Shown here in pieces: positions 30,121-62,070 of a stretch of 64,000 bases of DNA. The DNA lies in NCBI GenBank assembly GCA_038087875.1, contig CM075993.1, positions 6,760,001-6,824,000 of the forward strand. Direction: 5' to 3'. Source of the DNA: Malacoraja senta. Taxonomy: Eukaryota. The notes beneath the pieces are model-generated. The model was not told the DNA's origin and ran no database searches. It was given only the letters and a program-made list of their open reading frames with translations. Both the position numbers and the translations under genes were made by a program. The stretch's first letter is position 1. Each line of letters opens with the position of its first letter.

Positions 30121-32918
30121 GACTCTCAGTCTGAAGAAGGGTCTCGACGCAAAACGTCACCCATTCCTTCTCTCCAGAGATGCTGCCTGACCCGCTGAGT
30201 TACTCCAGCATTTTGTGTCTATCTTCGGTGTAAACCAGCATCTGCAGTTCCTTCCTATACACTAGGACTTTATTCCTTGGAGCTCAGGAGGATGAGGGGT
30301 GATCTTATAGAGGCATGAGGGGGAATAGATAGAATATTTTATAGACACAAAGCTGGTGTAACTCAGCGGGACAGGCAGCATCTCTGGAGAGGAATGGGTG
30401 ACGCTTCGGGTCAAGACCCTTCTTCAGATTTTAAATTATCGTGCCAGTCAACTTGTATGTTTTTTTCCACATCAAAAGAGATTGTTTATGTGCTGAAGTT
30501 CACACATGCATGAACTGTGACCCTCTGTGCTACCAGGGGAAATTCAGTAAAGGTTATACTTGAGCAAGTTCCCCTGAATTGTTAGTGTGGGAAGTTGTTG
30601 GTCGGTGTGGGCAAATTGGGCCAAAGGGCCTGTTTCCATGTTGTATGACTCTGTGACTCTCACATTAGAGCAATGCCCCTCCACTCCTTGGTATTTGCAC
30701 CCTGGGAGAAAAAGGTTCTGACTGTCTGCCCTGTCTATGCCTCTCATATTTCTAACAGGTCTCCCCTCGGCCTCCAGCATTGCCTAGGGAGTTATATATT
30801 CCACACACAGAGAGTTGTGAGTCTGTGGAATTCTCTGCCTCCGAGGTGGTGGAGGCCGGTTCTCTGGATGCTTTCAAGAGAGTGCTAGATAGGGTTCTTA
30901 GGGATAGTGGAGTTACGGGATATGGGGAGAAGGCAGGAACGGGTTACTGATTGTGGATGATCGATCAGCCATGATCACATTGAATGGCGGTGCTGGCTCG
31001 AAGGGCCGAAGGGCCGAATGGCCTACTCCTGCACCTATTGTATATTGTATTGGATCTAAGTGGACAACATTAAGAAACATAGAAAATAGGTGCAGGAGGA
31101 GGCCATTCAGCCCTTCGAGCCAGCACCGCCATTCATTGTGATCATGGCTGATCGTCCCCTATCAATAACCCGTGCCTGCCTTCTCCCCATATCCCTTGAC
31201 TCCACTAATAGAAACATAGAAAATAATTAATATCAACTAAATAGATGATGCCGTTGTTAATTAATCTAAATGACACAGGATTAAAAATCTGATATCAAAC
31301 ACATAGTGCTGGAGTAACTCAGCAGGTCAGGCAGCATCTATGGGGCGAATGGATGGGCAATGTATGGGACCCTTCTAGTTGTAAAACTGAAAGGTGACAA
31401 AATAGGAGAATTTGATGGGCATGTGAGAGGGAATAGGGTACAAGGAAATACAGGGGGGGAATTTGATTGTTCCTCGAGCTGGCGTAAATTAGATGGACTG
31501 AACGGCCTCTTATCTAATAGCAAAGCATGAGAGATCAGTTTCTTCCCAGCTGTTATCCAGCCTATCATCAACTAGAGAGTCGCCCTGACCTACCACCGAC
31601 CTCGGCACGGTGGCACAGCAGTACAGTTGCTGCCTCACAGCGCCAGGGACCCGGGTTCGATCCCGACTACGGGTGCTGTCTGTACGGAGTTTGTACATTC
31701 TCCCCGTGACCTGCGTGGGTTTTCTCCGAGATCTTCGGTTTACTCCAAAGACATACAGGTTTGTAGGTTATTTGGCTTGGTATAATTTAATAAATGTAAA
31801 ATTGTCCCTAGTGTGTGTAGGGATAGTGTCAATGTGCGGGGATCGCTGGTCGGCGCGGACCCGGTGGGCCGAAGGGCCTGTTTCCGCGCTGTATCTCTAA
31901 AACTAAAAACTAGAAAAAAGTTTTTAAAATAAAAAAATGTGTACAGCTGAGAATCAAATATAATCTGTTTGGAGACTTAACTGTTCAATAACTTAATGGA
32001 TTTTGAGAGAATAAATAAGGAGAAACCTTTACCGATGCCAGAAGCTCTGGTGACCAGTTAACATAGAATATAGAACAGTACAGGAACAGGCCCTTCGGCC
32101 CATAATGTTTGTGCTGAACTGATCTCGTCTGCCTGTACATCATCTACATTCCTCTATTCCCTGCATTACTGTGCCTATCTTAAACACCACTATCATATCT
32201 GCCTCCACCACCATCCCTGGCCATGCATTCCACTCCCCCACCACCCTCTATGTGTTCAATAAAGAAATTGCCTCGCACATCTCCATTAAGCTTCTCCTCT
32301 CTCACCTGGGGAAAAGGTTCTGACTGTCTACCCTCTCTGTGCCTCTCGTAATTTTACCGACTTCTATCAAGTTTCAAGTTTCCCCTCTACCTCCATTGCT
32401 CCAGGGAAACAATCCAAGCCTATTGGATCTTTGGGAGGTGGGAGGAAAACGGAGCACCACACGGTCACAGAGAGAACGTGCAAACTCCACTCGGAGAGCA
32501 TCTGTGTCGGGGTCGAACCTGGGTCCCTGGCAACTCTGAGGCAGCGGCTCTACCAGTTGCGCCACTGTGCCACCCTCCCGGGCCTCCCGATCTCACCAGC
32601 AACCTGACCAATATTCGCACCTTAAGTAGCATTGAGACTGATTATTATCTTTGCTTTGCTTAAATTATCGGCTGTTTCTTAAATCTCAATAGTGCCTGCA
32701 CCTCAACATTACACGGGCTGTAAAATGTTTTCAGACTTTGAACGTAGTGAAAGTGTCAAATAATTATTTTTTGTTTTATGTGTTTTTCTTGAACTTTTTT
32801 GCCTTTTCACGTTGATAAAGACTTGTCACGATAAAGGGTTGATAGAGACAAAATGCTGGGGTAACTCAGCGGGTCAGGCAGAATCTCTGGATAGAAGGAA
32901 TGGCTGACGTTTCGGGTT

Positions 32919-33046
32919 CTTTCTTCTTTCGTGTGGCGTGCACAGCCTCAAGTTGTTGGACAACTTGTTCTATTTGATCTTCCGTTTGTGCACGTCGAGT
33001 TGATTGCATTAGTCGAAACAGGGTCAAGGTTGCAATCTTCCACCCC
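32919..33046 (-). mobile_element. Short Ingi/Vingi-like non-autonomous retroelement, copy 1
   Basis: 12-bp TSD acgtttcgggtt/acatttcgggtt; AAG-rich tail; 5' end GGGGTGGAAGATTGCAACC; homologous to 47867-47991. Confidence 0.7.
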
Positions 33047-34346
33047 ACATTTCGGGTTGAGACCCTTCTTCAGACTGAGAGTCAGGGGAGAGGAGACACG
33101 GAGATATGGAAGGGTAAGGTGTGAAGATGAGACATCAAAGGGGGACGAAGGACAAGGAAAATGTAGAATAGATCATTGTGAGCTAGGGGAAGGTGACAAC
33201 GAAGGCATACAAAGAAAAAAAAAATTTTCAGGAGAATTAAATTGAACGAGTCTGAAGAAGGGTGCCGACCTGAAACATCACCTATCCATGTTCTCCAGAG
33301 ATGCTGCCTGACCTGCCGAGTTACCCAGGCACAGTGGGTTTAAAAAAAATCTTGCTGAGTCATTTGTACATAGTCTAAGGTGGGACATGCACATCTTTGA
33401 ATCGGAAGCTGTGTTTTGCTGGTGCATGGTTTTCCTTCATGGTGGGTTGGGACCCCCCTGTTGGCTGGGGATGGGTTAATGGTTGAGAGAGTGTTGCAGA
33501 GTGTTGTATTTTGACGGGCATTTGTGCGCTGTACACCTGGGGTGGGTGACGTTGCACTCTTGCCTTCTGCAGTTGTACAGGGCCCTAGTGAAACCACACC
33601 TGGAGTAATTGTGTTTAAGAATGAACTGCAGATGCTGGAAAATCGAAGGTTAAACAAAAATGCTGGGAGAAACTCAGCGGGTGCAGCAGCATCTATGGAG
33701 CGAAGGAAATAGGCAACGTTTGGGCCGAAAACCTGAAGGAAATAGGCAACGTTTCGGGACGAAACCCGGAAGGGTTTCGGGCCGAAATGTTGCCTATTTC
33801 CTTCGCTCCATAGAAATGCTGCTGCACCCGCTGAGTTTCTCCAGCACTTTTGCCTACCTTTGATTTCCAGCATCTGCAGTTCCTTCTAAAACCCATTAAA
33901 TTCCTGTCCCCTCTGCTAGTAGAAATTGTTAATCCCTCTCTGCAAAAACGCTTTTATCATGGATTGTTTCTGTTATATTACCATTAACTTTCTTTGTTCT
34001 GAGGCTAAAGTGACGCAGCGGTGGAGTTGCTGCCTCACAGCGCCAGAGACCCGGTTCATTCCTGACTACGGTGCTGTCTGTACGGAGTTCGTATGTTTAC
34101 CCCCCGGAACTGCGTGGGTTTTCTCCGGGTGCTCCGGTTTCCTCCCGCACTCCAAGACGCGCAGGTTTGTAGGTTAATTGGCCTCTGTAAATTCCTCCCT
34201 AGAGTGTGGGATGGAACTGGTATATGGGGGTGATCGCTGGTCAGCGCAGACTCGGTGGGCCGAAGGGCCTGTTTCCCCACCGTATCTGTGAAGGAAAGTC
34301 AAAAGTAAACAAAACAATCCTAGCTCCTCCAGCATGTCCATCATTA

Positions 34347-34669
34347 AGGGCTGTCCCACTGTACGAGCTGATTCAAGAGTTCTCCCGAGTTTCCCCTGAT
34401 TCGAACTCGGGAGAATTACGGTAATGGAATGGCCGCTCGTAGGTACTCGGGGCTCTCGTGGACATTTTTCAACATGTTGAAAAATCTTCACGAATCTTCA
34501 CCAGCTTACCGCGTTTCCCGAGTACCTGCCGTTAGCGTTACGAGCCGCTAAGAGACGTCCCCGAGCTCCGACGTACCTGCTACGTACATTCTACGTGCTT
34601 ACCACGAGTTTGATTTTTTTTTAAACTCGGGAGAGCTCTTGAATTAGCTTGTACAGTGGGACCGGCCCT
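34347..34669. mobile_element. MITE subfamily C
   Basis: Near-identical to 23757-24074. Confidence 0.85.
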
Positions 34670-35131
34670 TAACTGTCGGGATTCTCGCCCAGGATCTCTT
34701 CAGTATTGGCTCAATCTCAACTGGACTATTGTGATTGTGGTTTTATCGCGATTCCTTATTTTTGAGCTCTTAAGCCGGTTACAAAGCACAGGATCGACTT
34801 TTCTTTCATTGACTGGTTTTATTGACAACTAAATATGTTTGTTTAGGTTTATTATTGTCATGTGTACAATGAAAGGCTTGGTATTGCGCGCTATCCAAAC
34901 AGATGAGATAATGCTATTGATCAATATGGTGGTGAAGCGGTAGACTAGCTGCCTTACAGAGCCAGAGACACAGGTTCGATCCTGACTATGGGTGATGTCT
35001 GTACGGAGTTTGTATGTTCTCCCTGTAACCTGCGTGGGTTTTATCTGATATCTCCGGTTTCCTCCCACACTCCAAAGACGTACAGGTTTGTAGGCTAATT
35101 GGCTTGGTATAAATGTAAAATGTCCCTGGTG

Positions 35132-35442
35132 CAAGGGTTCCCAACCTGGGTACATGTCGCCTACCCAGGGGGGAAATTTGTTGATTCTGGATTTGTACAT
35201 ATTTTTTCTCATTGACTGACTGTGTTTGCTTCTGGTATACCAGTATCTGAAGAAGGGTTTCGACCCGAAACGTTGCCTATTTTCCTTCGCTCCATAGATG
35301 CTGCCTCACCCGCTGAGTTTCTCCAGAATTTTTGTCTACCTTCTGTTCATCATTAGTTGTTCATAAATAAGTGAAATAACATTGTTATGTGCTATTTAAA
35401 GTTGCCAGGGGACAACGGGATGAAAAAGGTTGGAACCCCTTG
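35132..35442. mobile_element. hAT MITE inside an HE1 SINE, itself interrupted by a Penelope pLTR (about 35245-35343)
   Basis: TIR CAAGGGTTCCCAACCT / AGGTTGGAACCCCTTG; 8-bp TSD ccctggtg/ccctagtg. Confidence 0.85.
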
Positions 35443-36002
35443 CCCTAGTGTGTGTAGGGCTAGTGTTAACGTGCGGGGATCGCTGGTCGGTGTGGACTTG
35501 GTGGGCCGAAGGGCTTCTTTCCGCGCTGTATCTAAAAAATCCAATTGTGTCAAACTCGAGTGTGATTCGTGGAGCAAAGGGGAAGATGCAAAATGCAGAA
35601 TATTGTTCTCAGCATTGTAATACTGCAGTTCCATATAAAGAAGTCCAATGTCCGCAATCGGGTAGTGGTGAATTGCGGCCATTGGACTTTGTTGATGGAA
35701 TTGGTGTACTTCAGCGTGGACTCCTTCCCCGAGTCTTTACCAATATTTATATTCTTACAACTTTGGTTTTCATGGACTGGATGTGTGAATTTTCGATGCA
35801 TGAGATGTGTGAATTGGAGGATCGGGTGCATATGATTTATAGGAATGACATTTTATTGTCACATGTGACAAGTGACGGTGATAATCTTTGTTTGGCACAG
35901 CCACGGTATGCAAAGAGTAGCCACATAAAGGGCGCTGACAGAGTTACAAAAATATGTCAAGTATAGTATGTATGTATGTAGACTTGATGTGAACAGTGCT
36001 TA

Positions 36003-36220
36003 AGGGCCTGTCCCACTTTCACGACCTAATTCACCACCTTTTTACTCGTGGACATTTTTCATCATGCTAGAAAAAACGCCCCGACCTACTTGATACCTAA
36101 GACTAGCATCACGGCCTGCTTCGACCTACCTACGACCTCGTGACGACCATGCTGCGAGTATGAGTCAAGGGCAAACTCGGCAGAGCTCGTGAATTTGGTG
36201 GTGAAAGTGGGACAGGCCCT
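36003..36220. mobile_element. MITE of the same TIR group (subfamily D), TSD TTA
   Basis: tta-AGGGCCTGTCCCACTTTCAC ... GTGAAAGTGGGACAGGCCCT-tta. Confidence 0.85.
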
Positions 36221-37489
36221 TTATAGACAGGATTCGTGAGGTTCGTTTAGTGATACAGCATGGAAACAGGCCCTTCGGCACACCGAGTCCATGCAGACTA
36301 TTGATCACCCGTTCACACTGTCGTCTGCTAGTTTCACTGTTCTTATCCCATCGTTATCACCTCGTCTTTAGCCAGCAATGCATCATTGTGGGCTCCACCT
36401 TGCCTTGGCCAACGGCGCTGACTCTGATTTGTTCTTTTCACACTTTTAACTCATTTGTTCTTTTTACCTCTTCATACCTCTCCCTCTGACTCTCAGCCTG
36501 AAGAAGGGTCTCGACCCGAAACGTCACCCGTTCCTTTTCACCAGATATGTTGCCTGACCCGCTGAGTTACTCCAGCACTTTGTGTCCGTCAGTGTTTGAG
36601 AAGCAGAATAATAAAACAAATAAACATGGGTGTGTGCATCGGTTCTTCTTTTTAATGGGCTGATTCATCAAAAATGAATGCATTGTCACAGTGTTTTCTT
36701 TAGTTTAGTTTAGATATTCAGCGCGGAAACAGGCCCTTCGGCCCACCAAGTCCGCACCAACCAACGATCCCCGCACACGAACACTATTCTACACACGGGG
36801 GACCATTTACAATTTTACCGAAGTCAATTAACCTACAAACCTGCACGTCTTTAGAGTGTGGGAGGAAACCAGAGCTCCTGGAGAAAACCAACGCAGGTCA
36901 CGGGGAGAACGCACAAACTCCATACAGGCAGCACCTGTAGGCAGAATAAAACCCGGGTCTCTAGCACTGTGAGGCAGCAATTCAACCGCTGCGCCACCGT
37001 GCCACTCATTTGTTGCTACAAAATTCTCTTGCTGCAATTTTCTACCTTGAGGTATACGCTTCCCAGCTTACAGAGAGATTTTGTTTGAAATGACTAATGT
37101 TTGGGTTAAAGTGAGTTAAGACTTACTGTAAAGAAGCCAAGGATCTTTGGTCGACATAAACCACTAGGCCAAATAGAAGATGCATTGTTTCTCTTGAAAA
37201 AAAGCACCTTCCCACCATTTTTGTTTTGTGGCATACAATGCGGTCTATTTTCAGATGGTGGTGGGCATGTGTTTTCTTGGATTTAATATAATTTCTGTGC
37301 GAAAGGGAAGCATATTATTTACCCTGTAGAGTATTTCCAGTCATTTATTTTTTGGGGTCGATTTTAGCATTCTGAATATATTTAGAACATAGAACAGTAC
37401 AGCACAAGAACAGGCCCTTCGGCCCACAATGTCTGTGCAAAGCATGATGCCCAGACCTACTCTCCTTATCCCTCCATTCCTTACATATT

Positions 37490-37885
37490 GGTGGTAGCCA
37501 GTGCCATCTTGTTCTCTGCATATGTGCTGGGGCAGCAGGGCGAAGGCCGCGGATGGCAATAGGATCAACAACCTCATCAGGAAGGCTGGCTCCGTCCTGG
37601 GGGTGGGGCTGGATCCACGGGAGGTGGTCTTGGAGGGGAGGATGCTGCTCAAACTGGGGAGATCCTTCTTCCCTGTGGCTATCAAACTGTACAACTCCTC
37701 CCCCTTCTGTCGTGGGGTAGACTGAGACTGACTGACTCCCCCCCCCCCCCCCCCCCCAATCTTTGCACGTCCCCAATCCTTTCCACTCGTCACTTTAATT
37801 TCATGTTTCATGTATTTTTGGGTTTTATGGCTGTTGGCAGATCAATTTCCCTCCTGGGATAAATAAAGTTCTATCGTATCGTATA
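37490..37885 (+). mobile_element. Rex1-type LINE 3' fragment, internally deleted
   Basis: CWGSRAKAADGNRINNLIRKAGSVLG...SFFPVAIKLYNSS; tail aataaagttctatcgtatcgtat. Confidence 0.8.
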
Positions 37886-38906
37886 TCACTGTGCCCTTCT
37901 TAAAGTCTCTTAAATGCCCCTATCATATCTGCCTCAACCACCACCTCCAGCAGCACGTCCCAGGCACCCACCACCCTCTGGGTAAATAAAAACGTACTCC
38001 ACACATTGCCTTTAAACTTTGTGCGTCTCAGTCAAAGCTATGTGGGAGGAAACCGGAGCACCTGGAGAACATGTCATAGTCACAGGGAGAACATGCAAAC
38101 TCCGTACAGACAGCACCCATAGACGGGATCGAACCCGGGTCTCTGGCGCTGTGAGGCAGCAACTCTACCGCAGCGCCACCCATGCCAATCGTTGAGAAAG
38201 CTTGTAGAAATGAAAACCTGGGGAGAAAAAATGAACGGGCATCTATCTGGGCGCGTTTGAGTTAACAAAAGAGAGGCAGTGTAAACTTAGTTAATTGGAA
38301 CTAATATGAATGGATTTGTTTTTTCTTTTGAGATAATGAACGATTGCCAGTGGCAATACCATAGATGTTTCTGCAAATGTTCAGAAGGAAGTTGTGGATA
38401 ACAACCCACATAAACGGTTCTAAAACTCAGGATTAAAGGGATCAGTGACAGTTTGGACAAAGACATTGGCTTTAGGACATGGTAAACTTATTTCTTCAGA
38501 CTAACATAGGGCAAGGGTCGTATTTTTTATTTGTTAATTAACTCGGGGATGGGTGAAAGTAAAAATTTCCGAACATTGTGGAAGGCAGCGGTAGAGTTGC
38601 TGCCTTACAGCGCCAAAGACCCGGGTTTGATCCTGACTACAGATGCCGTCTGTACGGAGTTTGTACCTTCTCCCCGTGACCTGTGTGGGTTTGCCCCGGT
38701 TGCTCCGGTTTTCTCCCACACTCCAAAGACGTGCGGGTTTGTAGGTTAATTGGGTTGGCAAAATTGTAATTTGTTCCTAGTGAGTGTTGGATAGTGTTAA
38801 AGTGCGGGGATCGCTGGTCGGCGCGGGAGCTGGAACGAAGGGCCTGTTTCCGCGCTGTATCTCGAAACTAAACGAAACAAAACCAAATTTACCAACATAA
38901 CCCTAA

Positions 38907-39226
38907 AAGCCCTGTCCCATGGTACGAGTTCATTCAAAGAGTTCTCCCGAGTTTGCCCTGATTTGAACTCGGAGATTTACGGTAATGGCCACTCGTCGGT
39001 ACTCGGGGCTCTCGTGGACATTTTTCAACATGTTGAAAAATCTTCACGAGTCTTCCCGTGCTTACCTGCCGTTAGCGAGTCTTCCCGAGTACCTGCCGTT
39101 AGCGCTAAGAGACGTCCCCGAGCTCTGACGTACCCGCTACGTTCATTCTCTGTGCTTACCGCGTGTTTGATTTTTTAAAAACTCGGGAGAGCTCTTGGAA
39201 TGAACTCGTACCGTGGGACAGGGCTT
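38907..39226. mobile_element. MITE subfamily C variant, TSD TAA
   Basis: taa-AAGCCCTGTCCCATGGTACGAGTTCATTC ... GAATGAACTCGTACCGTGGGACAGGGCTT-taa. Confidence 0.85.
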
Positions 39227-39854
39227 TAACCCTTCTTCACACTCGGAGATGCTGCCTGTCCCGCTGAGTTACTCCAGCATTTTGTGTCTATCTTTGGCGT
39301 AAAACCAGCATCCTTCCCACACACTGGATTTAACTAGTGTCGTTGATCGGAGTGGACTCAGAGGGGCAAAGGGCCTGTTTCCACACTGTAACTCTAAGAT
39401 GAAAAAGTTAAACAAATTTCTACTCAAAGTGTGCTGTGTGACAATCAATTTTCAATCCTTATCTGTGTATCACTCCTAACTGTAGCTGTTCATATTTACA
39501 CACTTTGTTTGTATTATTTAATCGAAGGCGGCACAGCGGTAGAGTTGCTGCCTTACAGCGAATACAGCGCCGGAGACCCGGGTTCGATCCCGACTACGGG
39601 TGCTGTCTGTACGGAGTTTGTACGTTCTCCCCGCGACCTGCGTGGGTTTTCTCCGAGATCTTCGGTTTCCGCCCATACTCCAAAGACGTACAGGCTTGTA
39701 GGCTAATTGGCTTGGTAAATGTAAAAATTGTCCCTAATGGGTGTAGGATAGTGTTAATGTGCAGGGATCGCTGGTCGGCGCAGACCCAGTGGGCCGAAGG
39801 GCCTGTTTCCGCGCTGTATCTGGGGTAAACATCACACCTTTCATAAATCAGACA

Positions 39855-40662
39855 ACAGAAGTGGCGGCGCTGTGGCAGCTGCGGCTCGCCTGCAGTCCGT
39901 TTGTCTTTTTTTTCCCTTTTGTCCTGTTTTAGTTTATTCAGTTTATTTTGGTTGCGTATGTGTGGGGGGTGTGGGTGAAACTTGTTTTAGTCTCTTCCTT
40001 CGGGGGGGGGATGCGACCTTTTCTTGTCATATCTCCGTCTCCGTCTGCGCTAAGGCCTATCGCGGAGCTGGCGGCCTCCAACTGGGGCCGACCTCGAGGC
40101 TCCGGAGGCAGAGCCAGGACTTACCAACGCGGGGCTGGCCGACTTCGGGGCTGCGGTGGCGTTGCGGCTGCAGCGACCCGACTTCGGGGCTGTGGCGGCG
40201 TTGCGGCGGCAGCCCAACTTCGGAGCCTCGGAGGCTTCGGCCGCGGGCCCAGTGGATGACAACATCGGGAGCTCGCAGGTCCCAGGTTGGTGACCGGTTG
40301 TCCGGAGCTCCCGCAACAACAGCTTCGTCCGCTGGACTGGAGGGTGGCAGCTTCGTCCGCCCCGGGCCGCGGAGCTCAGATTCGGCCGCGGGACTTACCA
40401 TCACCCAGCGGGGGAGCCCAACATCAGAAGCCTGGATCGCCTCAACGCAGAGGGAGAACAAGGAGGGAAGAGACAAGGACTTTAAGACTTTTGCCTTCCA
40501 CACACAGTGAGGAGGTGCCTGGTAGACTCACTGTGGTGGATGTTAAACTGTTAAGTGTGTGTTTTGTTATTTTATTCTATGTTATGACTGCAAGGTTTCG
40601 CAATTCCGTTGGGACTGAAAGGTCTGAATGGCAATAAAGGATAATTTGACTATGACTTTGAA
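39855..40662 (+). mobile_element. CpG-rich non-coding retroelement-like insertion with internal ~40-bp subrepeats
   Basis: Starts aagtggcggcgctg; repeated ccgacttcggggctg(c/t)gg(t/c)ggcgttgcggc; ends aataaa then (tttgac/tatgac)n. Confidence 0.5.
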
Positions 40663-41020
40663 ATCCCTTTGATAAATCCATGATAACTTTGTGTAATTCC
40701 ATTAATGATTTCATAATGCATTCCTAGCATGTTCCCATCACTGGTTTACTGTTTTTACCTACTTGTTTTGAAGATTGTGTGATTCATTTACCATCCCCCA
40801 ATCTGCCCCAAAGTGATTGAATTATTCTGAAGAAAGGTCTCGACCGGAAACCATTCCTTCTCTCCAGAGGTGCTGCCTCGACCCACTGAGTTCCTCCAGC
40901 ATTTGTGTCTATCTTCAAATTATTCGATACTCCGTACAGAATATTATTAAATGCTGACCAAAGCATCCGCGGTTTCCATGGCGACCGTGTTCAGTGCTTG
41001 GAATGCAGCTTGTCGGGTCC

Positions 41021-41220
41021 NNNNNNNNNNNNNNNNNNNNNNNNNNNNNNNNNNNNNNNNNNNNNNNNNNNNNNNNNNNNNNNNNNNNNNNNNNNNNNNN
41101 NNNNNNNNNNNNNNNNNNNNNNNNNNNNNNNNNNNNNNNNNNNNNNNNNNNNNNNNNNNNNNNNNNNNNNNNNNNNNNNNNNNNNNNNNNNNNNNNNNNN
41201 NNNNNNNNNNNNNNNNNNNN
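41021..41220. other. Assembly gap (200 N)
   Basis: Run of N. Confidence 1.
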
Positions 41221-41641
41221 GACAGCACCCTTAGTCGGGATCGAACACGGGTCTCTGGCGCTGTAAGGCAACAACTCTACCGCTGCGCTATCGTGCCGCC
41301 CTCAAGAAAACCCTAAGAACAGCGACAGGTTAAAGTTAATGGGAACTGAGAGGCCTAGCTCACCACTGCTGGTATGCGAGGTAGATGGAGCCCAGTAGTC
41401 TGTGGGCGTGGAGTCCCAGTCCCAGCTGCCCTCCCCTACCTCAGCAATGACAAGGTCAGAAGCAAGGCTGGTCACTGCTAATCTGTGTGACTGTTGGTCA
41501 ACTCTTATTTGCAATTCCTTAGATAACAAAGGAATGCTTGCGGGTCTGTGATTATGGGGCGAGATCTAGACAACACTCCCGTTTGGGATCTTGGGTACAA
41601 AGTAATACTTGCGCCACTTGAAAACCATTCCCCAACTAAAA

Positions 41642-42560
41642 GGCGCGGCACGGTGGCGCAGCGGTAGGTCTGCTGCCTCACAGCGCCACAGACACGGGTT
41701 CGATCCTGACTACGGGTGCTGTCTGTACAGTGTAAGAAGGAACTGCAGATGTTGGTTTAAACCGAAGATAGACACAAAAAGCTGGAGTAACTCAGCGGGA
41801 CAGGCAGCATCTCTGGAGAGAAGGAATGGGTGACGTTTCGGGTCGAGTTTGGTGTTATTGACCCGAATCGTCACCCACCTTCTCTCCAGAGATGCTGCCT
41901 GTCCTGCTGAGTTACTCCAGCTTTTTGTGGCTGTCTGTACGGAGTTTGTACGTTCTCCCCGTGACCTGCGTGGGTTTTCTCTGGGATCTCTGGTTTCCTC
42001 CCACACTCCAAACGCGACCAGGATTGTAGGTTAATTGACAATAGACAATGGGTGCAGGAGCAGGCCATTCGGCCCTTTGAGCCAGCACCGCCATTCAATG
42101 TGATCATGGCTGATCATCCCCAATCAGTACCCTGTTCCTGCCTTCTCCCCATATCCCCTGACTCCGCTAGCTTCAAGAGCCCTATCTAGCTCTCTCTTGA
42201 AAGTTTCCAGAGAACCTGCCTCCACCGCCCTCTGAGGCAGAGAATTCCACTGTCTCACCACTCTCTGTGAGAAAAAGTGTTTCCTCGTCTCCGTTCTAAA
42301 TGGCTTACTCCTTATTCTTAAACTGTGCCCCTGGTTCTGGACTCCCCCAACATCGGGAACATGTTTCCTGCCTCTAGTGTGTCCAAGCCCTTAACAATCT
42401 TATATGTTTCAAATATAATCTCTGGATTGTAGGTTAATTGGCTTGGTATAAGTGTAAATTGTCCCGAGTGTGTGTAGGATAGTGTTAGTGTGCGGGGATC
42501 GCTGGTCGGTGCGGACGCAGTTTCCCAAGGGCCTGTTACCGTGCTGTATCACTAAACTAA
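41642..42560 (+). mobile_element. HE1 SINE interrupted by a Penelope hairpin (41729-41929) and an antisense CR1 fragment (about 42038-42423)
   Basis: TSDs GCTGTCTGTAC (41718-41728, 41930-41940) and GGATTGTAGGTTAATTG (about 42021-42037, 42424-42440). Confidence 0.85.
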
Positions 42561-43224
42561 ACAGGAATCTAATTGCCCTCCCTTGATGTTGAGTAGAATT
42601 GCCACCACTACAGTGGCTCACTATGTGAATGATTGCAATTGTGTTTCTCTGTGATGGTGAAAATTAATCTGTCGACAGATACGGAACGACTGTGGTTGGT
42701 GGATGAATGCAGGCATTGTAACACGCATAAAGTATCAGGTAGCACAAATTGAATCTGGAGACCACCACCTCAATGTATGTAGAAACAAGGAACCAAAGAT
42801 CCAACACAAAAAGCTGGAGTAACTCAGTGGGTCAGTCAGCATCTCTGGAGAAAAGGGATTGGTGATGTTTCGGATCGAGACCCTTCTTCAGTGAGACGGG
42901 GGAAAGCGAAACGAGAGATATAGACGATGATGTAGAGATATACAGAACAAATGAATGAAAGATATGCAAAAAAACAATAACAATGATGAAGGAGACAGGC
43001 CATTTTTAGCTGTGGGCCGGGTGAAAATGAGTTACAGACAATGAGACTCAACAAGAAGACTTTGAAACTAGTACTTGGAGAAACTTGGTGGGGGACTGCA
43101 GATGCTGGTTTGCAAAAAAAAAGACACAAATGCTGGAGTGACTCAGTGTGTCGGGACCGTTCTTCAGTCTTCTTCTCTGGTCTGTAATGCCCTGAAATGT
43201 CGCCTTTCCATGTTCTCCAGAGAT

Positions 43225-43470
43225 TTTCCTACCTCCAGTCCCCCCCCCCCCAACCCCCCCCCCCCCCCCCACCTTTTACATAAACACGACGAAATTTAAT
43301 CAGGAGTGGCTACTCGTAAAGAAAAGTGAAATCTCTACCGAAATAGAAAAAATCTCGGCGTTTCTGCGTGCGGTGTTGGCGTAGCGCGGTATCAAAGGCT
43401 GGCGCTGGCACAAGTCAAGCAGACACACACACACACACACACACACAGTTTTAATCTATATATACTATTA
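43225..43470 (+). mobile_element. Possible Helentron/HINE-type 3' fragment
   Basis: CpG-rich segment followed by an (AC)n microsatellite and ttttaatctatatatac terminus; weak resemblance only. Confidence 0.3.
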
Positions 43471-44316
43471 TAGATGTCTGTGAAATATATCCTCATTTGA
43501 ATGAGTGTGCCTTAAGAAGGTACGTTAGTAATGATAATTTAAAGTCCAACATTAAACAAAAAAATGGGTATTGCAGACTAAATAGTGTGCAATGTCATAC
43601 AAACTCTATGACCAAGCAAGACAAATTTAATAACAACTTTACAAAACGATGGTTTGGCCACACCTTAAATTGGGTGAATGCTTCTGGTCACCACATTATA
43701 TGAAGGACAAGGATTTTCATCACCAAGGCATGGAAAGCTATGAACCTAATCTGGTTATGGAGTATGTATAGATAGCTTCTTGATGGTCAGCACGGTGGGG
43801 GTGGCACAGTGGCGCAGCGGTAGAGTTGCTGCCTTACAGTGCTTGTAGTGCCAGAGACCCAGGTTCGATCCCGACTACGTTCTCCCCGCGGGAAGCGGTA
43901 CGTTCTCCCCGTGACCGCTTGGGTTTTTCCCAAGATCTTTGGTTTCCTCCCACACTCCAAAGACATGCAGGGTTGTAGGTTAATTGGCTTGTTATAAGTG
44001 TAAAAAAATTGCCCCTGGTGTGTGTAGGATGGTGTTAATCTGCGGGGATTGCTGGTCGGTACGGACTCGGTGGGCCGAAGAGACTGTTTCCGTGCTTTAT
44101 CTCTAAAAAAAACACTAAAACACCATGGGCCAAGGGGCCTGTGGCTGTACTGATTGTCTATGGATCTATATGCAGTCATGACCCATTTTACTGCAGGTTT
44201 TATTAGTTTGGAGATACAGCATGGAAACAGGCCCTTCGGCCCACCGAGTCAACACCAACTATCGATCACCTGTTCACTCTAGTTCTACGTTATCCCGTAT
44301 TCTCATCCATTCCTTA

Positions 44317-44720
44317 AGGGCCTGTCCCACGGGCATGCGACTCCATGCGGCAAGAGCGACCTAACCGGAAGTGGGGGGCGCGCGGAGGTCGCGGGGCCGG
44401 TCCCACTTCGATCACCGGAGCCGTATGGAGTTGTGCGGAGCTGGTCCCGACATCGCGCGGGGCTCCGAAAAACTGACACTATTCAAATATTCCGCGCGGC
44501 AGCGGCCTGCCGCCCCGCAGCCGCATCGAGGCCATGCGCACCGCCTCGACGTCACTCGACCTCTGCGCGGCCCCCGCTTCCGGTTTGGTAGCGCTTGCCG
44601 CATGCAGCCGCATGCTGGTGGGACCGGCCCTGTACGGGGATCACTCGACCTCCGCGCGGCCCCCGCTTCCAGTTAGGTTGCGCTTGCCGCATGGAGTCGC
44701 ATGCCCATGGGACAGGCCCT
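44317..44720. mobile_element. GC-rich MITE of the same TIR group (subfamily E), TSD TTA
   Basis: Long inverted arms AGGGCCTGTCCCACGGGCATGCGACTCCATGCGGCAAG...; tta on both flanks; splits a SINE tail. Confidence 0.88.
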
Positions 44721-46339
44721 TTACACATTTGGAATTGGGTACCAGAGGACATAGGTTTAAGGTGAAGTGGAAAGATTTAATAGGAATCTGAGGGGTAATG
44801 TTTTTACACTAAGGGTGGTGGGTGTCTGGAACAAGCTGCCAGAGGAGGTATTTGAGGCGGGTACCATCGCAACGTTTAGGAGGTACATGGATGGAATAAG
44901 TTTGGAAGGATATGGACCAAACACAGGCAGGTGGGACTAGTGTAGATGGGACATGTGGGTAAGTTGGGCCAATTGACCTGTTTCCACTCTGTTTGAGTCT
45001 AGAGTCAATTTTACAGAAGCCCATTAACCTACCAACCTGCACATCTTTAGGATGTGGGGGGAAACTGGAGCACGTGGAGGATACCTACGTGGTCACAGGG
45101 AGAAGGTGCAAATTTCACACAGACAGCACTCTGAGGTTGGGATCGAACCCAGGTCTCTGGCGTTGTGAGGCCAGCGGTTCTGTGCTACACGGACAACGGA
45201 CGTAGTTGGAACCTGGTCCCTGATGCTGTGAGGCAGCAACTCTACCGCTGCACCATCGTGCCGGCCCTAAAACAGTGCCGTTCTTCACAATGCATCCTGA
45301 ATGCTGAGCAACAAGCACACGTCTGGGCATATTTGACTACATCGAAAGTCCCTTGTATCACTTTTGGTCAAATTTGCATAGGATGAACCAATACAAATAT
45401 ACACACATTTTTTAAGCCAGCTGCAAATCACACAATTGTCGCTTTCAATTGTCACAAACCACAGCATCTGCTATTAATTTGGTATTTTTGATATATTTCA
45501 AACCAGCTGCAAATCGCTGGTGTGTAGGAAGGAACTGCAGATACTGGATTATACCGGAGATAGACACAAAATGCTGGAGTAACTCAGCGGGTCAGGCAGC
45601 ATCTCTGGAGAAAAGGAATAGGTGATGTTTTAGGTCCAGTCACTTAATCAGACTCACTATCACTAATGAATCAATATTGTTGCTTCCTCTTGTCATAGCA
45701 ACGGCAACGTGTCCATTCGGTACTTTTAATATAATCTCTCAGGGTGGTGCTGAAAGGAAGAAGTGTTCATTAATATGGTGTGTTTCATAATGTCAGACTA
45801 TCCCTATACTGTATTCGAAATGTGTCAGAAGGAACTGCAGATGCTGGTTTTAAACCGATGATAGATGCAAAATGCTGGAGTAACTCAGCGGAACAGGCAG
45901 CATCTGTGGAGAGAAGGAATGGGTGACCCTTGACTGATCAGTCTGAAGAAGGGTCTCGACCCGAAACGCCGCCCGTTCCTTCTCTCCAGAGATGCTGCCT
46001 GTCCCGCTGAGTTACTCCAGCATTTTGTGTCTATCCTGTGTAGTGACTGTTGGGGAAGGTGGTGGAACGCTGGGGACTTTTCCACGTTGGGGCCTGGCCC
46101 TATGTGCGTGTCTCTACAAACTAATACGTGTGGTTAAGTTGGTTGCTTTTACTTCTCCTATCCTGCTGGATCATTCTGGAGGCTGGTGTGTGAGAGTTCG
46201 GCGATGTCAGGGGTGCTTCTGTCCATGACACAGCGGTGACTCCCTGTTCACGGACTGAGCTCGGCAAGATGTGCCGGCATCCAGCTGCCTTCAGAAGGTG
46301 CGGCAGAGGGAAACTGAGGAGTTTGTAGCCAAGAGGACA

Positions 46340-46397
46340 ATGAACTGGGAGGAACAGTTTGCAAGAAGCTTAGCCCTGCAACCCAGGGAAAAGTCAG
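46340..46397 (+). CDS. Candidate alternative first coding exon 1b of paracaspase (MNWEEQFARSLALQPREKS+G)
   Basis: ACAATG context, upstream in-frame TGA, 58 nt, donor CAG|GTAAGG, phase 1, within a unique-sequence island at about 46040-46550. Confidence 0.5.
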
Positions 46398-46564
46398 GTA
46401 AGGCGCGTTCATTTGGCGAAGCATCATCGAGTCTTAAATAAAGAGAAATGCATTTATTTCCACAGCACCTTCCTTGATCTCAGTATGCCATGAAGGGACT
46501 TTGAAATACAGTCACTTTTTGTCATGCCCCAGCCAAGGTCAATCCAAAAGTTACATCAAAGTTA

Positions 46565-46780
46565 TTCACAAAAAGCTGGAGTAACTCAGCGGGACAGGCA
46601 GCATCTCTGGAGAGGAGGAATGGGAGATGTTTCAGGTCGAGAAACGACCCTCCTGAGGATGGGTCTCGACCCAAAATGTCACCCATTCCTTCTCTCCAGA
46701 GATGCTGCCTGTCCCACTGAGTTACTCCAGCTTTTTGTGTCTATCTTTGGTTTAAACCAGCATCTGCAGTTCCTTCCTAC
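46565..46780. mobile_element. Penelope pLTR hairpin element with 12-bp TSD
   Basis: ACATCAAAGTTA at 46553-46564 and 46781-46792. Confidence 0.8.
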
Positions 46781-47866
46781 ACATCAAAGTTACTGCTATA
46801 TAGAATATACTAACTAGAAACATAGAAAATAGGTGCAGGAGTAGGCCATTCGGCCCTTCGAGCCTGCACCGCCATTCAATATGATCATGGCTGATCATCC
46901 AACTCAGTACCTGCCTTCTCTCCATACCCCCTGTACCCTTTAGCCACAAGGGCCACATCTAACTCCCTCTTAAATATAGCCAATGAACTGGCCTCAACTA
47001 CCTTCTGTGGCAGAGAATTCCAGAGATTCACCACTCTCTGTGTGAACTAGCCTTGTATCTGTGTAGAAAGGAACTGCAGATGCTTGTTTACGTCACATAT
47101 AGACACCAAATGCTGGAGTAACTCAGCGGGTCAGGCTGCATCTCTGGAGAGAAGGAATGGGCGACGTTTCGGGTCGAGACCCTTCCACCGTTTAAAGCAG
47201 CATCTGCAGTTCCTTCGTACACATTATTGTTATGTGGAGTTGGCCTTGGTTTCATGCTCAGCATAGACATTGTGGGCCGAAGGGCCTGTTCCTGTGTTGT
47301 ACTGTCCTAAATGTGTTCTAAATGTAATTTAAATGAGTTGTGGGTGTAAGACACGACCCGAAACTTTACGGAATCATTATCTCAAACAGCGGCTAAAATA
47401 GGACGGATGTTTAGACTGACACTTGCTATAATTCCTTCGTCAGAACAGACAGCAGTCATCCTGTTTATTCATTTGTGGCTAATGTGTCGTGTCTGTCCAC
47501 TCAGGTTAATAAAAACTACCAGCTGTGAAAATTCAACAGTCTCATTACAGAAACTTTCAATTGATTTCCAGCCTCCAGGTTTAGAACATGGAGCAGTACA
47601 GCACAAGAACTGGCTCTTCGGCCCATCATGTCTCTGCCAAGCACGGTGCCAAGACCATCACGTATCTACCTGTACGTAACCCATATCCCTTCATTCACTG
47701 CGGCGTATCTATACGCCAATCCATTAGTCTTTTAAATGCCCCTGGTGTGTCCTCCTCAACGCCACTCCTGGCAGTGTATTCCAGGCACTCGCCCATCCTC
47801 GGTGTCCCTGCATACCACCTTTCAACTTTGCCCCTGTTCCAGATTCCCACCATCTTTGAATGAAGT

Positions 47867-47991
47867 CTTCTTCTTGCGTATGGCGTGCACAGCCTAAAGT
47901 TGGAGGACAACTTGTTCTATTTGATCAATTAATTGTGCACGTGGGGTTGATTGGATTAGTGGACCACGAGAAGGTTGCAATCTCCCACCCC
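47867..47991 (-). mobile_element. Short Ingi/Vingi-like non-autonomous retroelement, copy 2
   Basis: 12-bp TSD tttgaatgaagt/tttggttgaagt; 3' end gccatacgcaagaagaaga; 5' end GGGGTGGGAGATTGCAACCTTCTCGTGGTCCAC. Confidence 0.7.
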
Positions 47992-48702
47992 TTTGGTTGA
48001 AGTGCTCACCCTCAGCAACCCAACTCATATTATACTAACAAGATGTGACATAAATGAACTGTAGATGCTGGTTTATACCAAAGATGGACACCCAATTCTG
48101 AAGTAACTCCTGTGGGTCGGGCAGCATCTCTGAAGAGAATGGGATAGATGACGTCTCAGGGAGGGACCCTTCTTCAGACTTTGAAGAAAGGTCCTGACCT
48201 GAAACGTCACGTATCCATGTTCCCCGGCGCCTGGACACCTCCCTGGACTCTCACCCCTGGACCATAACCCCATAGACGACCACCAGGCCACCATTTTGCA
48301 GAAAGACCACCAGCTTGTCTGGAGATGCTGCCTGACCCGCTGAGTTACTCCAGCACTCTGGGCCTACCAATGTTACCGACTCTTTGATCTGCATATTTTC
48401 CACCAGAGGAAGTAATTACTCCACCGATACTTTATTAATAGTTTTTTTTTTGTCATCTAAAATGGTTGAGGGAATCTATTAAACCTGTCGCTGTAATATA
48501 AACCACCTTTCTCAGCCCACATAATGCAACCAGGCAAGGGTCGCTGTAATAGTCAGGCAGTGTTGACAAAACTAGCATAGCGTGTTCTACTTGAGTGGTA
48601 TTACTGCAGCCGGATTCATTGTCCACACCCTATCAACATGGGCTCACTACCTGCATTATGCGAGGCCTCTATGATGTTCCTCAACCTGCCCGACTTCAAT
48701 AT

Positions 48703-59294: not shown

Positions 59295-62070
59295 TTCAGG
59301 GGTGATAGAATTGGAGGGGCAAGAGGTGGGGGTGTTGCATTGCTTGTCAAGGAAGATATTACAGCAGTGCTTTGGCAGGATAGATTAGAGGGCTCGTCTA
59401 GGGAGGCTATTTGGGTGGAACTGAGAAATGGGAAAGGTGTAGCAACACTTATAGGGGTGTATTATAGACCGCCAAATGGGGAGCGAGAATTGGAAGAGCA
59501 AATATGTAAGGAGATAGCAGATATTAGTAGTAAGCACAAGGTAGTGATTGTGGGAGATTTCAATTTTCCACACATAGACTGGGAAACACATTCTGTAAAA
59601 GGGCTGGATGGTTTGGAGTTTGTAAAATGTGTGCAAGATAGTTTTTTGCAGCAATACATAGAGGTACCTACTAGAGAAGGGGCAGTGCTGGACCTCCTGT
59701 TAGGAAATGAGACAGGGCAAGTGGCGGAGGTATGCGTCGGGGAGCACTTCGGGTCCAGTGATCACAATACCATTAGTTTCAATATAATTATGGAGAGGGT
59801 CAGAACTGGACCTAGGGTTGAGATTTTTGTTTGGAGAAAGGCTAACTTTGAGGAGATGCGAAAGGATTTAAAAGGAGTGAATTGGGACATGTTGTTTTAT
59901 GGGAAGGATGTAGAAGAAAAATGGAGGACATTTAAGGGTGAAATTTTAAGAGTACAGAATCTTTATGTCCCTGTTCGGTTGAAAGGAAATAGTAAAAAAT
60001 GGAAAGAGCCATGGTTTTCAAGGGAAATTGGACACGGTTCGGAAAAAGAGAGAGATCTACAATAATTATAGGCAGCATGGAGTAAATGAGGTGCTTGAGG
60101 AGTATAAAGAATGTAAAAAGAATATTAAGAAATAAATTAGAAAAGCTAAAAGAAGATATGAGGTTGCTTTGGCAAGTAAGGTGAAAGTAAATCCAAAGGG
60201 TTTCTACAGCTATATTAATAGCAAAAGGATAACAAGGAATAAAATCGGTCCATTAGTCAGAGTGGACAGCTATCTGCAGAGCCAAAAGAGATGGGGGAGA
60301 TATTGAACAATTTCTTTTCTTCGGTATTCACGAAGGAGAAGGATATGGAATTATGTGAGGTAAGGGAAACGAGCAGAGTAGCAATGGAAACTGTGAGATT
60401 CAAAGAAGAGGAGGTGCGGACACTTTTGAAAAATATGAAAACGGATAAGTCTCCAGGTCCTGACAGGATATTCCCTAGGACATTGAGGGAAGTTAGTGTA
60501 GAAATAGCAGGGGCTATGACAGAAATATTTCAAATGTCATTAGAAACGGGAATAGTGCCGGAGGATTGGCGTACTGCGCATGTTGTTCCGTTGTTTAAAA
60601 AGGGTTCGAAGAGTAAACCTAGCAATTATAGACCTGTTAGTTTGACGTCAGTGGTGGGCAAATTAATGGAAAGGATACTTAAAGATAATATATATAAGCA
60701 TCTGGATAAGCAGGGTCTGATTAGGAACAGTCAACATGGATTTGTACCTGGAAGGTCATGCTTGACTAATCTTCTTGAATTTTTCGAAGAGGTTACTAGG
60801 GAAATTGATGAGGGTAAAGCAGTGGATGTTGTCTATATGGACTTCAGTAAGGCCTTTGACAAGGTTCCTCATGGAAGGTTGGTTAAGAAGATTCAATTGT
60901 TGGGTATTAATGGTGGAGTAGCAAGATGGATTCAACAGTGGCTGAATGGGAGATGCCAGAGAGTAATGGTGGATGGCTGTTTGTCAGGTTGGAGGCCGGT
61001 GACTAGTGGGGTGCCTCAGGGGTCTGTGTTGGGTCCACTGTTGTTTGTCATGTACATCAATGATCTGGATGAAGGTGTGGAAAATTGGATTAGTAAGTAT
61101 GCAGATGATACTAAGATAGGTGGTGTTGTGGATAATGAAGTAGATTTTCAAAGTCTACAGAGAGATTTAGGCCATTTGGAAGAGTGGGCTGAAAGATGGC
61201 AGATGGAGTTTAATGCTGACAAATGTGAGGTGCTACATCTCGGCAGGACAAATCAAAATAGGACGTACACGGTAAATGGTAGCGTATTGAGGAATGCAGT
61301 TGAACAGAGGGATCTAGGAATAACTGTGCATAGTTCCCTGAAGGTGGAATCTCATGTAGATAGGGTGGTAAAGAAAGCTTTTGGTGTGCTGGCCTTTATA
61401 AATCAGAGCATTGAATATAGAAGTTGGGATGTAATGTTAAAATTGTACAAGGCATTGGTGAGGCCAATTCTGGAGTATGGAGTACAATTTTGGTCGCCTA
61501 ATTATAGGAAGGATGTCAACAAAATAGAGAGAGTACAGAGGAGATTTACTAGAATGTTGCCTGGGTTTCAGCAACTAAGTTACAGAGAAAGGTTGAACAA
61601 GTTAGGTCTTTATTCTTTGGAGCGCAGAAGGTTAAGAGGGGACTTGATAGAGGTCTTTAAAATTATGAGCGGGTTAGACAGAGTGGACGTGGATAAGCTT
61701 TTCCCATTGAGAGTAGGGAAGATTCAAACAAGGGGACATGACTTGAGAATTAAGGGACAGAAGTTTAGGGGGAACATTAGGGGGAACTTCTTTACTCAGA
61801 GAGGTAGCTGTGTGGAATGAGCTTCCAGTGGAAGTGGTGGAGGCAGGTTCGATGTTATCCTTTAAAAATAGATTGGATGGGTATATGGACGGGAAAGGAA
61901 TGGAGGGTTATGGTCTGAGTGCAGGTAGATGGGACTAGGGGGAAGTATTTTATTTTTAATTTAATTTAAAAAAATAAAATAAAAAATAAAAATTTAAATG
62001 TTCGGCACGGACTTGAAGGGCCCAGATGGCCTGTTTCCGTGCTGTTATGGTTATATGGTTATATGGTTAT
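59295..62070 (+). mobile_element. Young CR1/HER1-type LINE, 5'-truncated ORF2 (APE endonuclease plus RT) with about 3 frameshifts
   Basis: GVYYRPP, IVGDFNFPHIDW, SSDHN (EN); KSPGPD, NYRPVSLTS, QHGF, DFSKAFD, GVPQGSVLGP, YADD (RT, 509-aa ORF 60291-61820); tail (tatggtta)n. Confidence 0.97.

What the first reader, a model, noticed from the sequence alone, without database searches (positions are those of the whole stretch)
32907..47991. ~125-bp retroelement whose 5' end reconstructs an HDV-like self-cleaving ribozyme
Seen: two homologous minus-strand copies (32919-33046, 47867-47991), each with a 12-bp TSD and an AAG-rich tail, both starting exactly at GGGGTGG. They carry different internal deletions. 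Merging them gives GGGGTGG-RA-GATTGCA-ACC-TTCTCGT-GGT-CCACCCT-GTTTCGA-CTAA-TGCAATC. This fits the HDV nested double pseudoknot: P1 GGGGTGG/CCACCCT (7 bp with a G1-U wobble at the element's first base), P2 GATTGCA/TGCAATC, P3 ACC/GGT, L3 UUCUCGU, a minimal P4, and J4/2 C-U-A-A holding the catalytic C. Established: HDV-like ribozymes define the 5' ends of R2, Ingi/L1Tc and related retroelements. Inference: this is a ribozyme-headed mini-retroelement with no tRNA head, mobilised by an Ingi/Vingi-type LINE. Neither copy here is individually intact.
Basis: partly seen in the sequence, partly recalled or inferred. Interest (0 to 1): 0.85.

Follow-up and report, generated by a model that had tools for sequence, protein, structure and literature searches.

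The report
Self-cutting RNA heads tiny retroelement
These are two damaged copies of a 135-base jumping element, present thousands of times in this genome, made of the two ends of a Vingi-type retrotransposon; its front folds on paper like the smallest hepatitis-delta-type ribozymes known from phages and likely cuts the element out of host transcripts.

Summary
An exact 20-mer of the element occurs 5,830 times in G000. Of 70 copies sampled without regard to the ribozyme, 47 keep every HDV-like element and 26 are perfect; the window's two copies are deleted exceptions. I found the parent LINE: decayed copies of a single-ORF endonuclease-RT element, no RNase H found (Vingi-type), that begin with the same 54-nt ribozyme and end in the same ~40 nt. 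So this is a bipartite internal-deletion derivative, like NARTc/RIME, R2 SIDEs and hedgehog Vingi derivatives. The ribozyme has almost no P4, and its core matches tRNA-adjacent phage (theta-like) ribozymes. In four RNA runs the largest loose-end class joins the template-switch oligo directly to G1, so RNAs starting there exist; cleavage versus initiation at +1 is not resolved. Three more ribozyme-headed families occur in this genome. In the papers I could search, I found no ribozyme reported for Vingi and no minimal HDV-like ribozyme in a vertebrate; two key papers were unavailable. Cleavage is untested. New variant of a known kind.

The parts
32919..33046 (-). Copy 1 of the bipartite element (128 nt; 9-nt deletion in the ribozyme core)
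33002..33046 (-). Copy 1 ribozyme remnant: P1 5' strand, J1/2, P2, P3 5' strand, broken L3/P3'/P1', G, L4, J4/2 with the putative catalytic C, P2'; G1 = 33046
   Evidence: sequence against intact copies
32984..33046 (-). Part homologous to the 5' end of the parent LINE
   Evidence: aligns to L379
32964..32983 (-). Linker with no match in either LINE end; includes a local duplication of CAAATAGA (inferred)
32919..32963 (-). Part homologous to the LINE's 3' end: last codons, stop (mutated in this copy), short 3' UTR, (AAG)n tail
   Evidence: aligns to L369
32987..32994 (-). 5' arm of the predicted terminal stem (from the LINE 5' UTR)
   Evidence: fold of intact copies; sequence
32937..32944 (-). 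3' arm of the predicted terminal stem (from the LINE 3' UTR)
   Evidence: sequence
33047..33058 (-). Upstream TSD of copy 1
32907..32918 (-). Downstream TSD of copy 1 (11 of 12 identical)
   Evidence: single-copy form in repeat families D5/D10
47867..47991 (-). Copy 2 of the bipartite element (125 nt; 11-nt deletion and a P2' substitution)
47949..47991 (-). Copy 2 ribozyme remnant: P1 5' strand, P2, intact P3/L3 hairpin, P1'/L4 deleted, J4/2; G1 = 47991
47867..47910 (-). Part of copy 2 homologous to the LINE's 3' end and tail
47992..48003 (-). Upstream TSD of copy 2
47855..47866 (-). Downstream TSD of copy 2 (10 of 12 identical)

Best explanation
The element is the first ~63-79 and last ~40 bases of a Vingi-type LINE joined by a short linker, and its first 54 bases are predicted to fold as a minimal HDV-like ribozyme that likely cuts the RNA just before G1. 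Shown: the anatomy, the shared ends, TSDs, copy number, and RNAs that begin at G1. Inferred: a host read-through transcript crosses a copy; the ribozyme folds and cleaves, leaving a uniform, compactly folded 5' end; the LINE protein, supplied in trans, recognises the shared 3' end and (AAG)n tail and inserts the RNA by target-primed reverse transcription with a TSD of about 12 bp. No tRNA head or promoter would be needed, and each intact new copy would carry its own processing signal. The window's two copies are predicted to be inactive; their deletions most likely arose during or after insertion.
For: Fold: nested P1(7)/P2(7)/P3(3)/P1.1, G1-U pair, C at the first J4/2 position in 64 of 67 copies; 47 of 70 copies intact, 26 perfect; 0 of 20,000 shuffles fit. 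Across four families in this genome, the LINE and three phage loci (9 sequences), P1 positions 4-7 each show 3-4 different pair types with no unpaired cell, and P3 position 1 is A-U or G-C. L3 is identical to the Rfam CPEB3 consensus L3. Phage loci with a tRNA ending immediately before G1 share P3, L3 and a 7-nt L4 followed by CUAA or CUGA (L281, L278); such theta ribozymes cleave in vitro and are killed by C-to-U (PMC10879173, passages). Parent: 9 of 10 fetched LINE 3' copies end in the element's last ~40 nt. 5 of 8 loci hit by the endonuclease N-terminus carry the same ribozyme, whole or 5'-truncated, about 105 nt before the ATG. The L379 copy has the C-terminus 2.6 kb downstream on the same strand. 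A 122-nt subfamily is exactly LINE 5' 90 nt plus 3' 31 nt. RNA: loose ends before place 1001 (= G1) number 1,579, 1,314, 532 and 675 reads in four runs from two studies, with the template-switch oligo as consensus (agreement 0.80, 0.77, 0.43, 0.45; oligo handle checked in PMC9546769). The oligo's three G are additional to the element's four, which plain strand invasion would not give.
Against: No cleavage assay. Rfam gives no hit for this family at E <= 5 (4 loci) and none at the window copies. Nested folding is not more stable than shuffles (z +0.45, -0.77, +0.10; pseudoknots are not modelled). The tool's own table of places where many molecules begin or end was empty. Oligo-joined reads do not separate cleavage from initiation at +1, and the related L1Tc 5' end is both promoter and ribozyme (PMC3185411, passages). 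Strand invasion at GGG is a known artefact (PMC9546769), 41 of 70 copies have T before G1 as the oligo does, and a few strongly expressed loci could dominate the reads. The 3' A-runs may be oligo-dT priming on the tail. The reads come from 'organism A', which may not be the window's species. Among the 30 best matches to deleted copy 1, all have core deletions yet start at G1, and one deletion recurs at 7 loci; this fits recurrent deletion but also spread from a ribozyme-dead source. All LINE copies seen are decayed (87-95% pairwise, open frames <= 254 aa among the 150 scored), while the 29 copies closest to copy 1 are 97.9% alike (biased sample), so the protein source for the youngest copies was not seen.
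Confidence: 0.76

Rival explanations
1. Same anatomy, but the uniform 5' end comes from an internal promoter that starts at G1 (Pr77-like, or a degenerate Pol III promoter). The HDV-like fold is inherited from the LINE and acts mainly as a protective 5' knot, with weak or no cleavage.
For: L1Tc's first 77 nt work as a promoter initiating at +1 (PMC3185411). HDV folds improve R2 template use, and the authors posit this depends on structure but not necessarily activity (PMC11331408, passages). Core-deleted copies still start at G1, with one deletion at 7 loci. Oligo-joined reads fit either origin. A weak A-box/B-box likeness at positions 5-15 and 37-44 is visible by eye (consensus recalled, not tested).
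Against: The putative catalytic C, P1.1 and L3 residues are kept in all four families and in the phage look-alikes, while P1/P2 sequences diverge with pairing kept. The B-box-like letters are the L4 loop, have a close counterpart in phage loci, and are absent from families B, C and D.
Confidence: 0.15
2. The parent is not Vingi but an RTE-clade or RNase-H-less Ingi element, or the youngest copies were mobilised by the young Nimb-like LINEs, which share the (AAG)n tail and similar TSD length.
For: RTE also has one endonuclease-RT ORF of about 1,000 aa without RNase H (recalled) and known HDV-like ribozymes (PMC5786205). Nimb-like copies with 1,277-aa open frames, (AAG)n tails and 13-14 bp TSDs exist here, whereas the LINE that shares the ends looks decayed.
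Against: The full-length relative P0003 aligns to Nimb over 798 aa (206 bits) against 129 bits for CR1 and 124 for an L2/Crack-like element, and ends in a CxC...H...C motif with no RNase H. The Nimb ends show no sequence homology to the element beyond the tail. No RTE or Ingi reference was available to test.
Confidence: 0.09

Closest known systems
NARTc and RIME of trypanosomes (L1Tc/ingi derivatives with the Pr77 HDV-like ribozyme; PMC3185411, passages)
   Same: Non-coding element made of the two ends of an Ingi-related LINE, with an HDV-like ribozyme whose cut site is +1.
   Different: Here the ribozyme is 54 nt with almost no P4 (Pr77 is 77 nt), the tail is (AAG)n, no RNase H was found in the parent, and the host is a 1.9-Gb animal genome. 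Cleavage and promoter activity are untested here.
Non-autonomous Vingi derivatives (Vingi-1_EE internal deletions; Kojima 2011 not held, seen only as cited in PMC5786205 and PMC4494074)
   Same: Bipartite internal-deletion derivatives of a compact single-ORF APE-RT LINE lacking RNase H.
   Different: [quoted passage not shown]
R2 SIDEs of Drosophila (PMC3414825, passages)
   Same: 5' HDV-like ribozyme plus the 3' end of a LINE, mobilised in trans; cleavage was shown there in vitro.
   Different: SIDEs are confined to rDNA sites; this family is dispersed in more than 5,800 copies.
Minimal HDV-like and theta ribozymes of phages (PMC10879173, passages)
   Same: No real P4; same P3/L3 and a 7-nt pyrimidine-rich L4 before CUAA as in phage locus L281.
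   Different: Theta ribozymes follow tRNA genes in Caudoviricetes (nearly 99% of that paper's hits; its eukaryote set was human, mouse and protists). Here the motif heads a retroelement. Shared ancestry or convergence is unknown.
Mammalian CPEB3 ribozyme (Rfam RF00622)
   Same: Identical L3 and a single-pair P1.1. Family B of this genome shares the CPEB3 P2 and hits the model at E 4e-4.
   Different: CPEB3 is a single intronic copy with a P4 (recalled). The window family does not hit the model, and family B stays below the gathering score (29.5 of 35 bits).

Membership tests
HDV-like ribozyme | Nested double pseudoknot P1/P2/P3/P1.1 in the right order | tested here: met
   47 of 70 copies; 0 of 20,000 shuffles. 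Not met in the window's two copies.
HDV-like ribozyme | G1 wobble pair opening P1, at the element's first base | tested here: met
   G at position 1 in 58 of 69 and T at 36 in 67 of 68; TSD ends within 1 nt of G1 in 48 of 62
HDV-like ribozyme | C at the first position of J4/2 (CNRA) | tested here: met
   64 of 67 copies; descriptor hits with C 66, with A/G/T 2/1/4, the latter all in family members
HDV-like ribozyme | Compensatory changes in helices | tested here: met
   Across families, LINE and phage loci. Within the window family only U-A/U-G at P1 position 5 varies.
HDV-like ribozyme | Match to a curated Rfam model at gathering score | tested here: not met
   No hit for the window family; families B, C and D hit HDV-type models below threshold
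HDV-like ribozyme | Mg2+-dependent self-cleavage 5' of G1, lost with C-to-U | not testable with these tools
   Indirect only: oligo-joined reads at G1
Theta ribozyme | Minimal fold without P4 | tested here: met
   G37 plus 6 nt between P1' and J4/2; at most one U-A pair closing UUCG
Theta ribozyme | Adjacent tRNA gene in a phage genome | tested here: not met
   No tRNA in six loci; works like one, is not one
Bipartite non-autonomous LINE | 5' and 3' parts match the two ends of one autonomous LINE | tested here: met
   L378, L375 and L363 are inverted insertions holding both ends
Bipartite non-autonomous LINE | TSDs and simple-repeat tail shared with the LINE | tested here: met
   TSD called in 62 of 70, mode 12 bp; (AAG)n tail on both
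SINE (tRNA/5S/7SL head, Pol III) | Small-RNA-derived head | tested here: not met
   The head is the LINE's own 5' end; ARAGORN and Rfam find no small-RNA gene
Vingi clade (parent LINE) | Compact single ORF with APE and RT, no RNase H | tested here: met
   Relative P0003, 1,019 aa, Pfam APE + RT only; genome copies collinear with it at mostly 55-80% identity; none in the C-terminal frames of genome copies
Vingi clade (parent LINE) | RT phylogeny: sister to Ingi within the I group | tested here: inconclusive
   Closer to Nimb than to CR1 or Crack by BLAST; no named Vingi, Ingi or RTE reference was at hand and no tree was built
Retrozyme (tandem, hammerhead, circular RNA) | Tandem repeats bounded by ribozymes | tested here: not met
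   Copies are solitary with TSDs; no end-to-start joint listed in reads

The most novel reading that the evidence does not exclude
A vertebrate genome carries thousands of working minimal (P4-less) HDV-like ribozymes, a form so far tied to phages. They were spread by a Vingi LINE whose 5' end is itself such a ribozyme, and they cut host transcripts to release an abundant ~130-nt RNA. At least four independent ribozyme-headed mini-elements coexist here, one CPEB3-like, which makes such elements a plausible source of domesticated vertebrate ribozymes.
Probability: 0.45. Interest if true: 0.78.

Novelty: new variant of a known kind. Interest (0 to 1): 0.6.

Why it matters
It would add Vingi to the clades whose 5' end is set by a self-cleaving ribozyme. 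That bears on Kojima's open question (PMC5786205) of why only RTE, Ingi, Vingi and R2 yield bipartite elements: all four would then carry a 5' ribozyme. It places a minimal HDV-like ribozyme in an animal genome, where the theta-ribozyme survey found almost none. Thousands of natural variants at known positions make the effect of ribozymes on host pre-mRNAs testable, for example by looking for depletion of intact sense copies in introns. Vingi UTRs are used in gene-writing platforms (PMC13708176), so a 135-nt natural template shows which parts suffice for mobilisation in trans.

Tried and rejected
(1) Nimb-like LINEs as parent: found through PF14529 (70 of the 150 scored loci fetched); same tail type but no shared end sequence and no ribozyme. 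(2) Patterns that exclude the short element returned mostly mutated or truncated short copies. They missed the LINE as a family because it shares the excluded letters; two rare variants (L208, L363) gave the lead. (3) The family's core 22-mer in JGI metagenomes: 0 hits. (5) PDB holds only distant L1/R2/group II RTs; the ESM Atlas hits were unnamed. (6) 5'-3' pairing in the LINE: with 50-nt windows and a 45-nt tail the 5' UTR was not among the top 8 windows; with the 21-nt 3' UTR it ranked first in 2 of 3 copies and third in one. Suggestive only. (7) A deletion hot spot in the ribozyme core is not established: 3 of 70 unbiased copies (two of them a local duplicate) have an L3/P1' deletion; the 30 of 30 are selected by the query. 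(8) MAFFT misregisters P1 between families, so pairs were counted by parsing; that parser failed on P2 for two phage loci. (9) The promoter/terminator scan is bacterial and uninformative here. (10) Not-in-print searches. Ruminski 2011 and Kojima 2011 are not held, and Repbase/Dfam and supplements were not seen; any of these may already record a Vingi ribozyme or this family.
Full report
Observation. Both copies lie where stated, on the minus strand, each with a 12-bp target-site duplication and an (AAG)n tail. They are 82% alike and the window has no third. Copy 1 sits in an abundant repeat whose other members show the duplicated stretch once. The window is G000:C17:6760001-6824000 in a 1.94-Gb genome. 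Its repeats look like those of a cartilaginous fish; that is recalled and untested.

The family. BLAST-type searches with each copy gave 1,499 and 621 candidates, and an exact 20-mer from the 3' half occurs 5,830 times, against 0 for the control. For a sample blind to the ribozyme I took 70 of the first 71 listed 20-mer hits on contig C1; the one skipped was already held as L036, and at least four pairs are local duplicates. In it, 47 of 70 keep all parts of the fold with at most one mismatch in P1 or P2, and 26 are perfect. A TSD was called in 62 (mode 12 bp) and ends within one base of G1 in 48. The sequence is also held by 20 public runs from 12 studies and at least eight coded organisms (10 sampled words, a weak search).

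The fold. P1 is 7 bp starting with G1-U, J1/2 is 2 nt, P2 is 7 bp, P3 is 3 bp, L3 is UUCACGU, C22 can pair with G37, six bases replace P4, and J4/2 is CNAA with C in 64 of 67 copies. No shuffle of 20,000 fits a family-agnostic descriptor. Rfam does not detect this family, and nested folding is no better than shuffles, though it keeps the 5' and 3' domains apart in two of three copies. A relaxed core pattern that excludes this family gave 51 genome hits against 4 for the control. They are mostly three more short, TSD-flanked families (B, C, D) that also start at the G1 of an HDV-like fold, with a long L4/P4. Across these families, the LINE and three phage loci, P1 positions 4-7 change letters while staying paired. 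A 16-mer of the core hit 17 viral contigs; three (L268, L278, L281) have a tRNA ending just before G1 and share P3, L3 and a short pyrimidine-rich L4. These fit theta ribozymes, which cleave in vitro and were nearly all found in phages (PMC10879173, passages).

The parent. Young Nimb-like LINEs share the tail type but no end sequence. Two rare variants (L208, L363) carried a coding stretch ending in the element's last bases. A protein search with it gave 1,227 candidates, 150 scored. Of 10 fetched, 9 end in the same ~40 nt and tail; they are 87-95% alike and broken. The nearest database protein led to full-length relatives of about 1,000 aa with endonuclease and RT and no RNase H. The N-terminus of one (P0003) found 5' copies in the genome: 5 of 8 fetched carry the same ribozyme, whole or truncated, about 105 nt before the ATG. 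The window family is LINE 5' 63-79 nt, a linker of 13-20 nt and LINE 3' 42-46 nt; a 122-nt subfamily is LINE 5' 90 nt joined straight to 3' 31 nt. P0003 is closer to Nimb (206 bits) than to CR1 (129) or Crack (124). With the missing RNase H this fits Vingi as described in PMC13708176 (passages), but no tree with named references was possible. Clade names for the in-genome references are my labels from recalled features.

RNA. I laid four raw RNA runs of organism A (two studies; 1-5% of each run) on intact copy L035 at 85% likeness; 3,961 to 4,661 reads were laid per run. The largest loose-end class in each lies before place 1001, which is G1: 1,579, 1,314, 532 and 675 reads, with the template-switch oligo as consensus (agreement 0.80, 0.77, 0.43, 0.45). 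The class one base earlier (225, 251, 509, 337 reads) has no such consensus. Because the oligo's GGG adds to the element's GGGG, these look like true template switches at an RNA 5' end and not like strand invasion, which is a known artefact at GGG (PMC9546769, PMC3877366, passages). A-runs begin at the first A of the tail in the single-cell runs, which may be internal priming. The table of shared start points was empty, and 593 further loose-end rows were not shown. The data show RNAs that begin at G1, not how that end was made.

Mechanism. Shown: bipartite anatomy, shared ends, TSDs, copy number, G1-starting RNAs. Inferred: release from read-through transcripts by self-cleavage, and target-primed reverse transcription by the LINE protein in trans. 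A stem between the LINE-derived 5' and 3' parts forms in all three subfamilies folded and is longest in the commonest one (11 bp, z -3.4); it may present the 3' end, but the same pairing in the LINE is only suggestive. The main rival is initiation at +1, as for L1Tc (PMC3185411). It gains from core-deleted copies that still start at G1, one deletion recurring at 7 loci.

Known and new. Ribozyme-headed bipartite elements are known (NARTc/RIME, R2 SIDEs), and so are Vingi internal deletions (PMC3185411, PMC3414825, PMC5786205, PMC4494074; passages, plus section 23 of PMC5786205). Reviews note HDV-like ribozymes in LINEs and SINEs of many metazoans (PMC6765202, PMC7761336; passages). PMC5753468, PMC3391268 and PMC11331408 were seen as passages. 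Eight searches found no report of a Vingi ribozyme, of a minimal HDV-like ribozyme in a vertebrate retroelement, or of this family. Ruminski 2011, Kojima 2011, Repbase and supplements were not seen. Earlier scan notes describe similar elements in other genomes and nothing for this one. Verdict: real; new variant of a known kind; interest 0.6.

Noticed in passing
L224-L228, L232-L235, L239-L241, L243-L245, L248, L251 (about 1489-1670): Family B: ~170-nt TSD-flanked element starting with an HDV-like fold whose P2 equals that of CPEB3; hits the Rfam CPEB3 model at E 4e-4, below gathering. Parent LINE not sought.
   Followed up: partly
L229-L231, L236, L238, L242, L246, L247, L249, L250, L252: Family C: ~150-nt element with an HDV-like fold at its first base and a different, (CGAA)-like tail. 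Parent not sought.
   Followed up: partly
L237, L324-L338, L361, L362: Family D: ~200-nt element (803 candidates) with a canonical HDV-like fold including P4 and CGAA, a long terminal stem (z -2.3) and nearly the same last bases before the tail as the window family.
   Followed up: partly
L128, L134, L135, L137, L144: Young Nimb-like LINEs (~5.1 kb, 1,277-aa frame) have different extra sequences in front of a shared 5' start, inside their TSDs; possibly 5' transduction or splicing from host promoters.
   Followed up: no
L363, L375, L378; also L169, L181: Insertions with an inverted 5' part, as in twin priming; in several the break falls in or next to the ribozyme's P2/P3.
   Followed up: partly
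L001-L030: 15 different small deletions around L3/P1' among the 30 best matches to copy 1, several recurring at unrelated loci; query-biased, hot spot unproven.
   Followed up: partly
70-copy sample (L067-L096, L284-L323): The base before G1 is T in 41 of 70 copies; may reflect target preference or an untemplated A on the cDNA end.
   Followed up: no
G000 hits at 30-45% identity, e.g. C1:165943681, C4794:29568, C8:937245: Other endonuclease-bearing families with open frames of 900-1,014 aa; candidates for the parents of families B-D or for a young protein source. Not fetched.
   Followed up: no
L255, L256, L261, L266, L268, L273, L278, L281: Minimal or short HDV-like motifs in metagenome and viral contigs; five of seven scanned have a tRNA just upstream.
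   Followed up: partly
window 60333-61496; repeats D2/D5 and D7/D12 across the window: A CR1-like RT remnant (27% to P0003; label is my guess), a very abundant palindromic ~100-190-bp repeat and a ~300-bp SINE-like repeat dominate the window.
   Followed up: no
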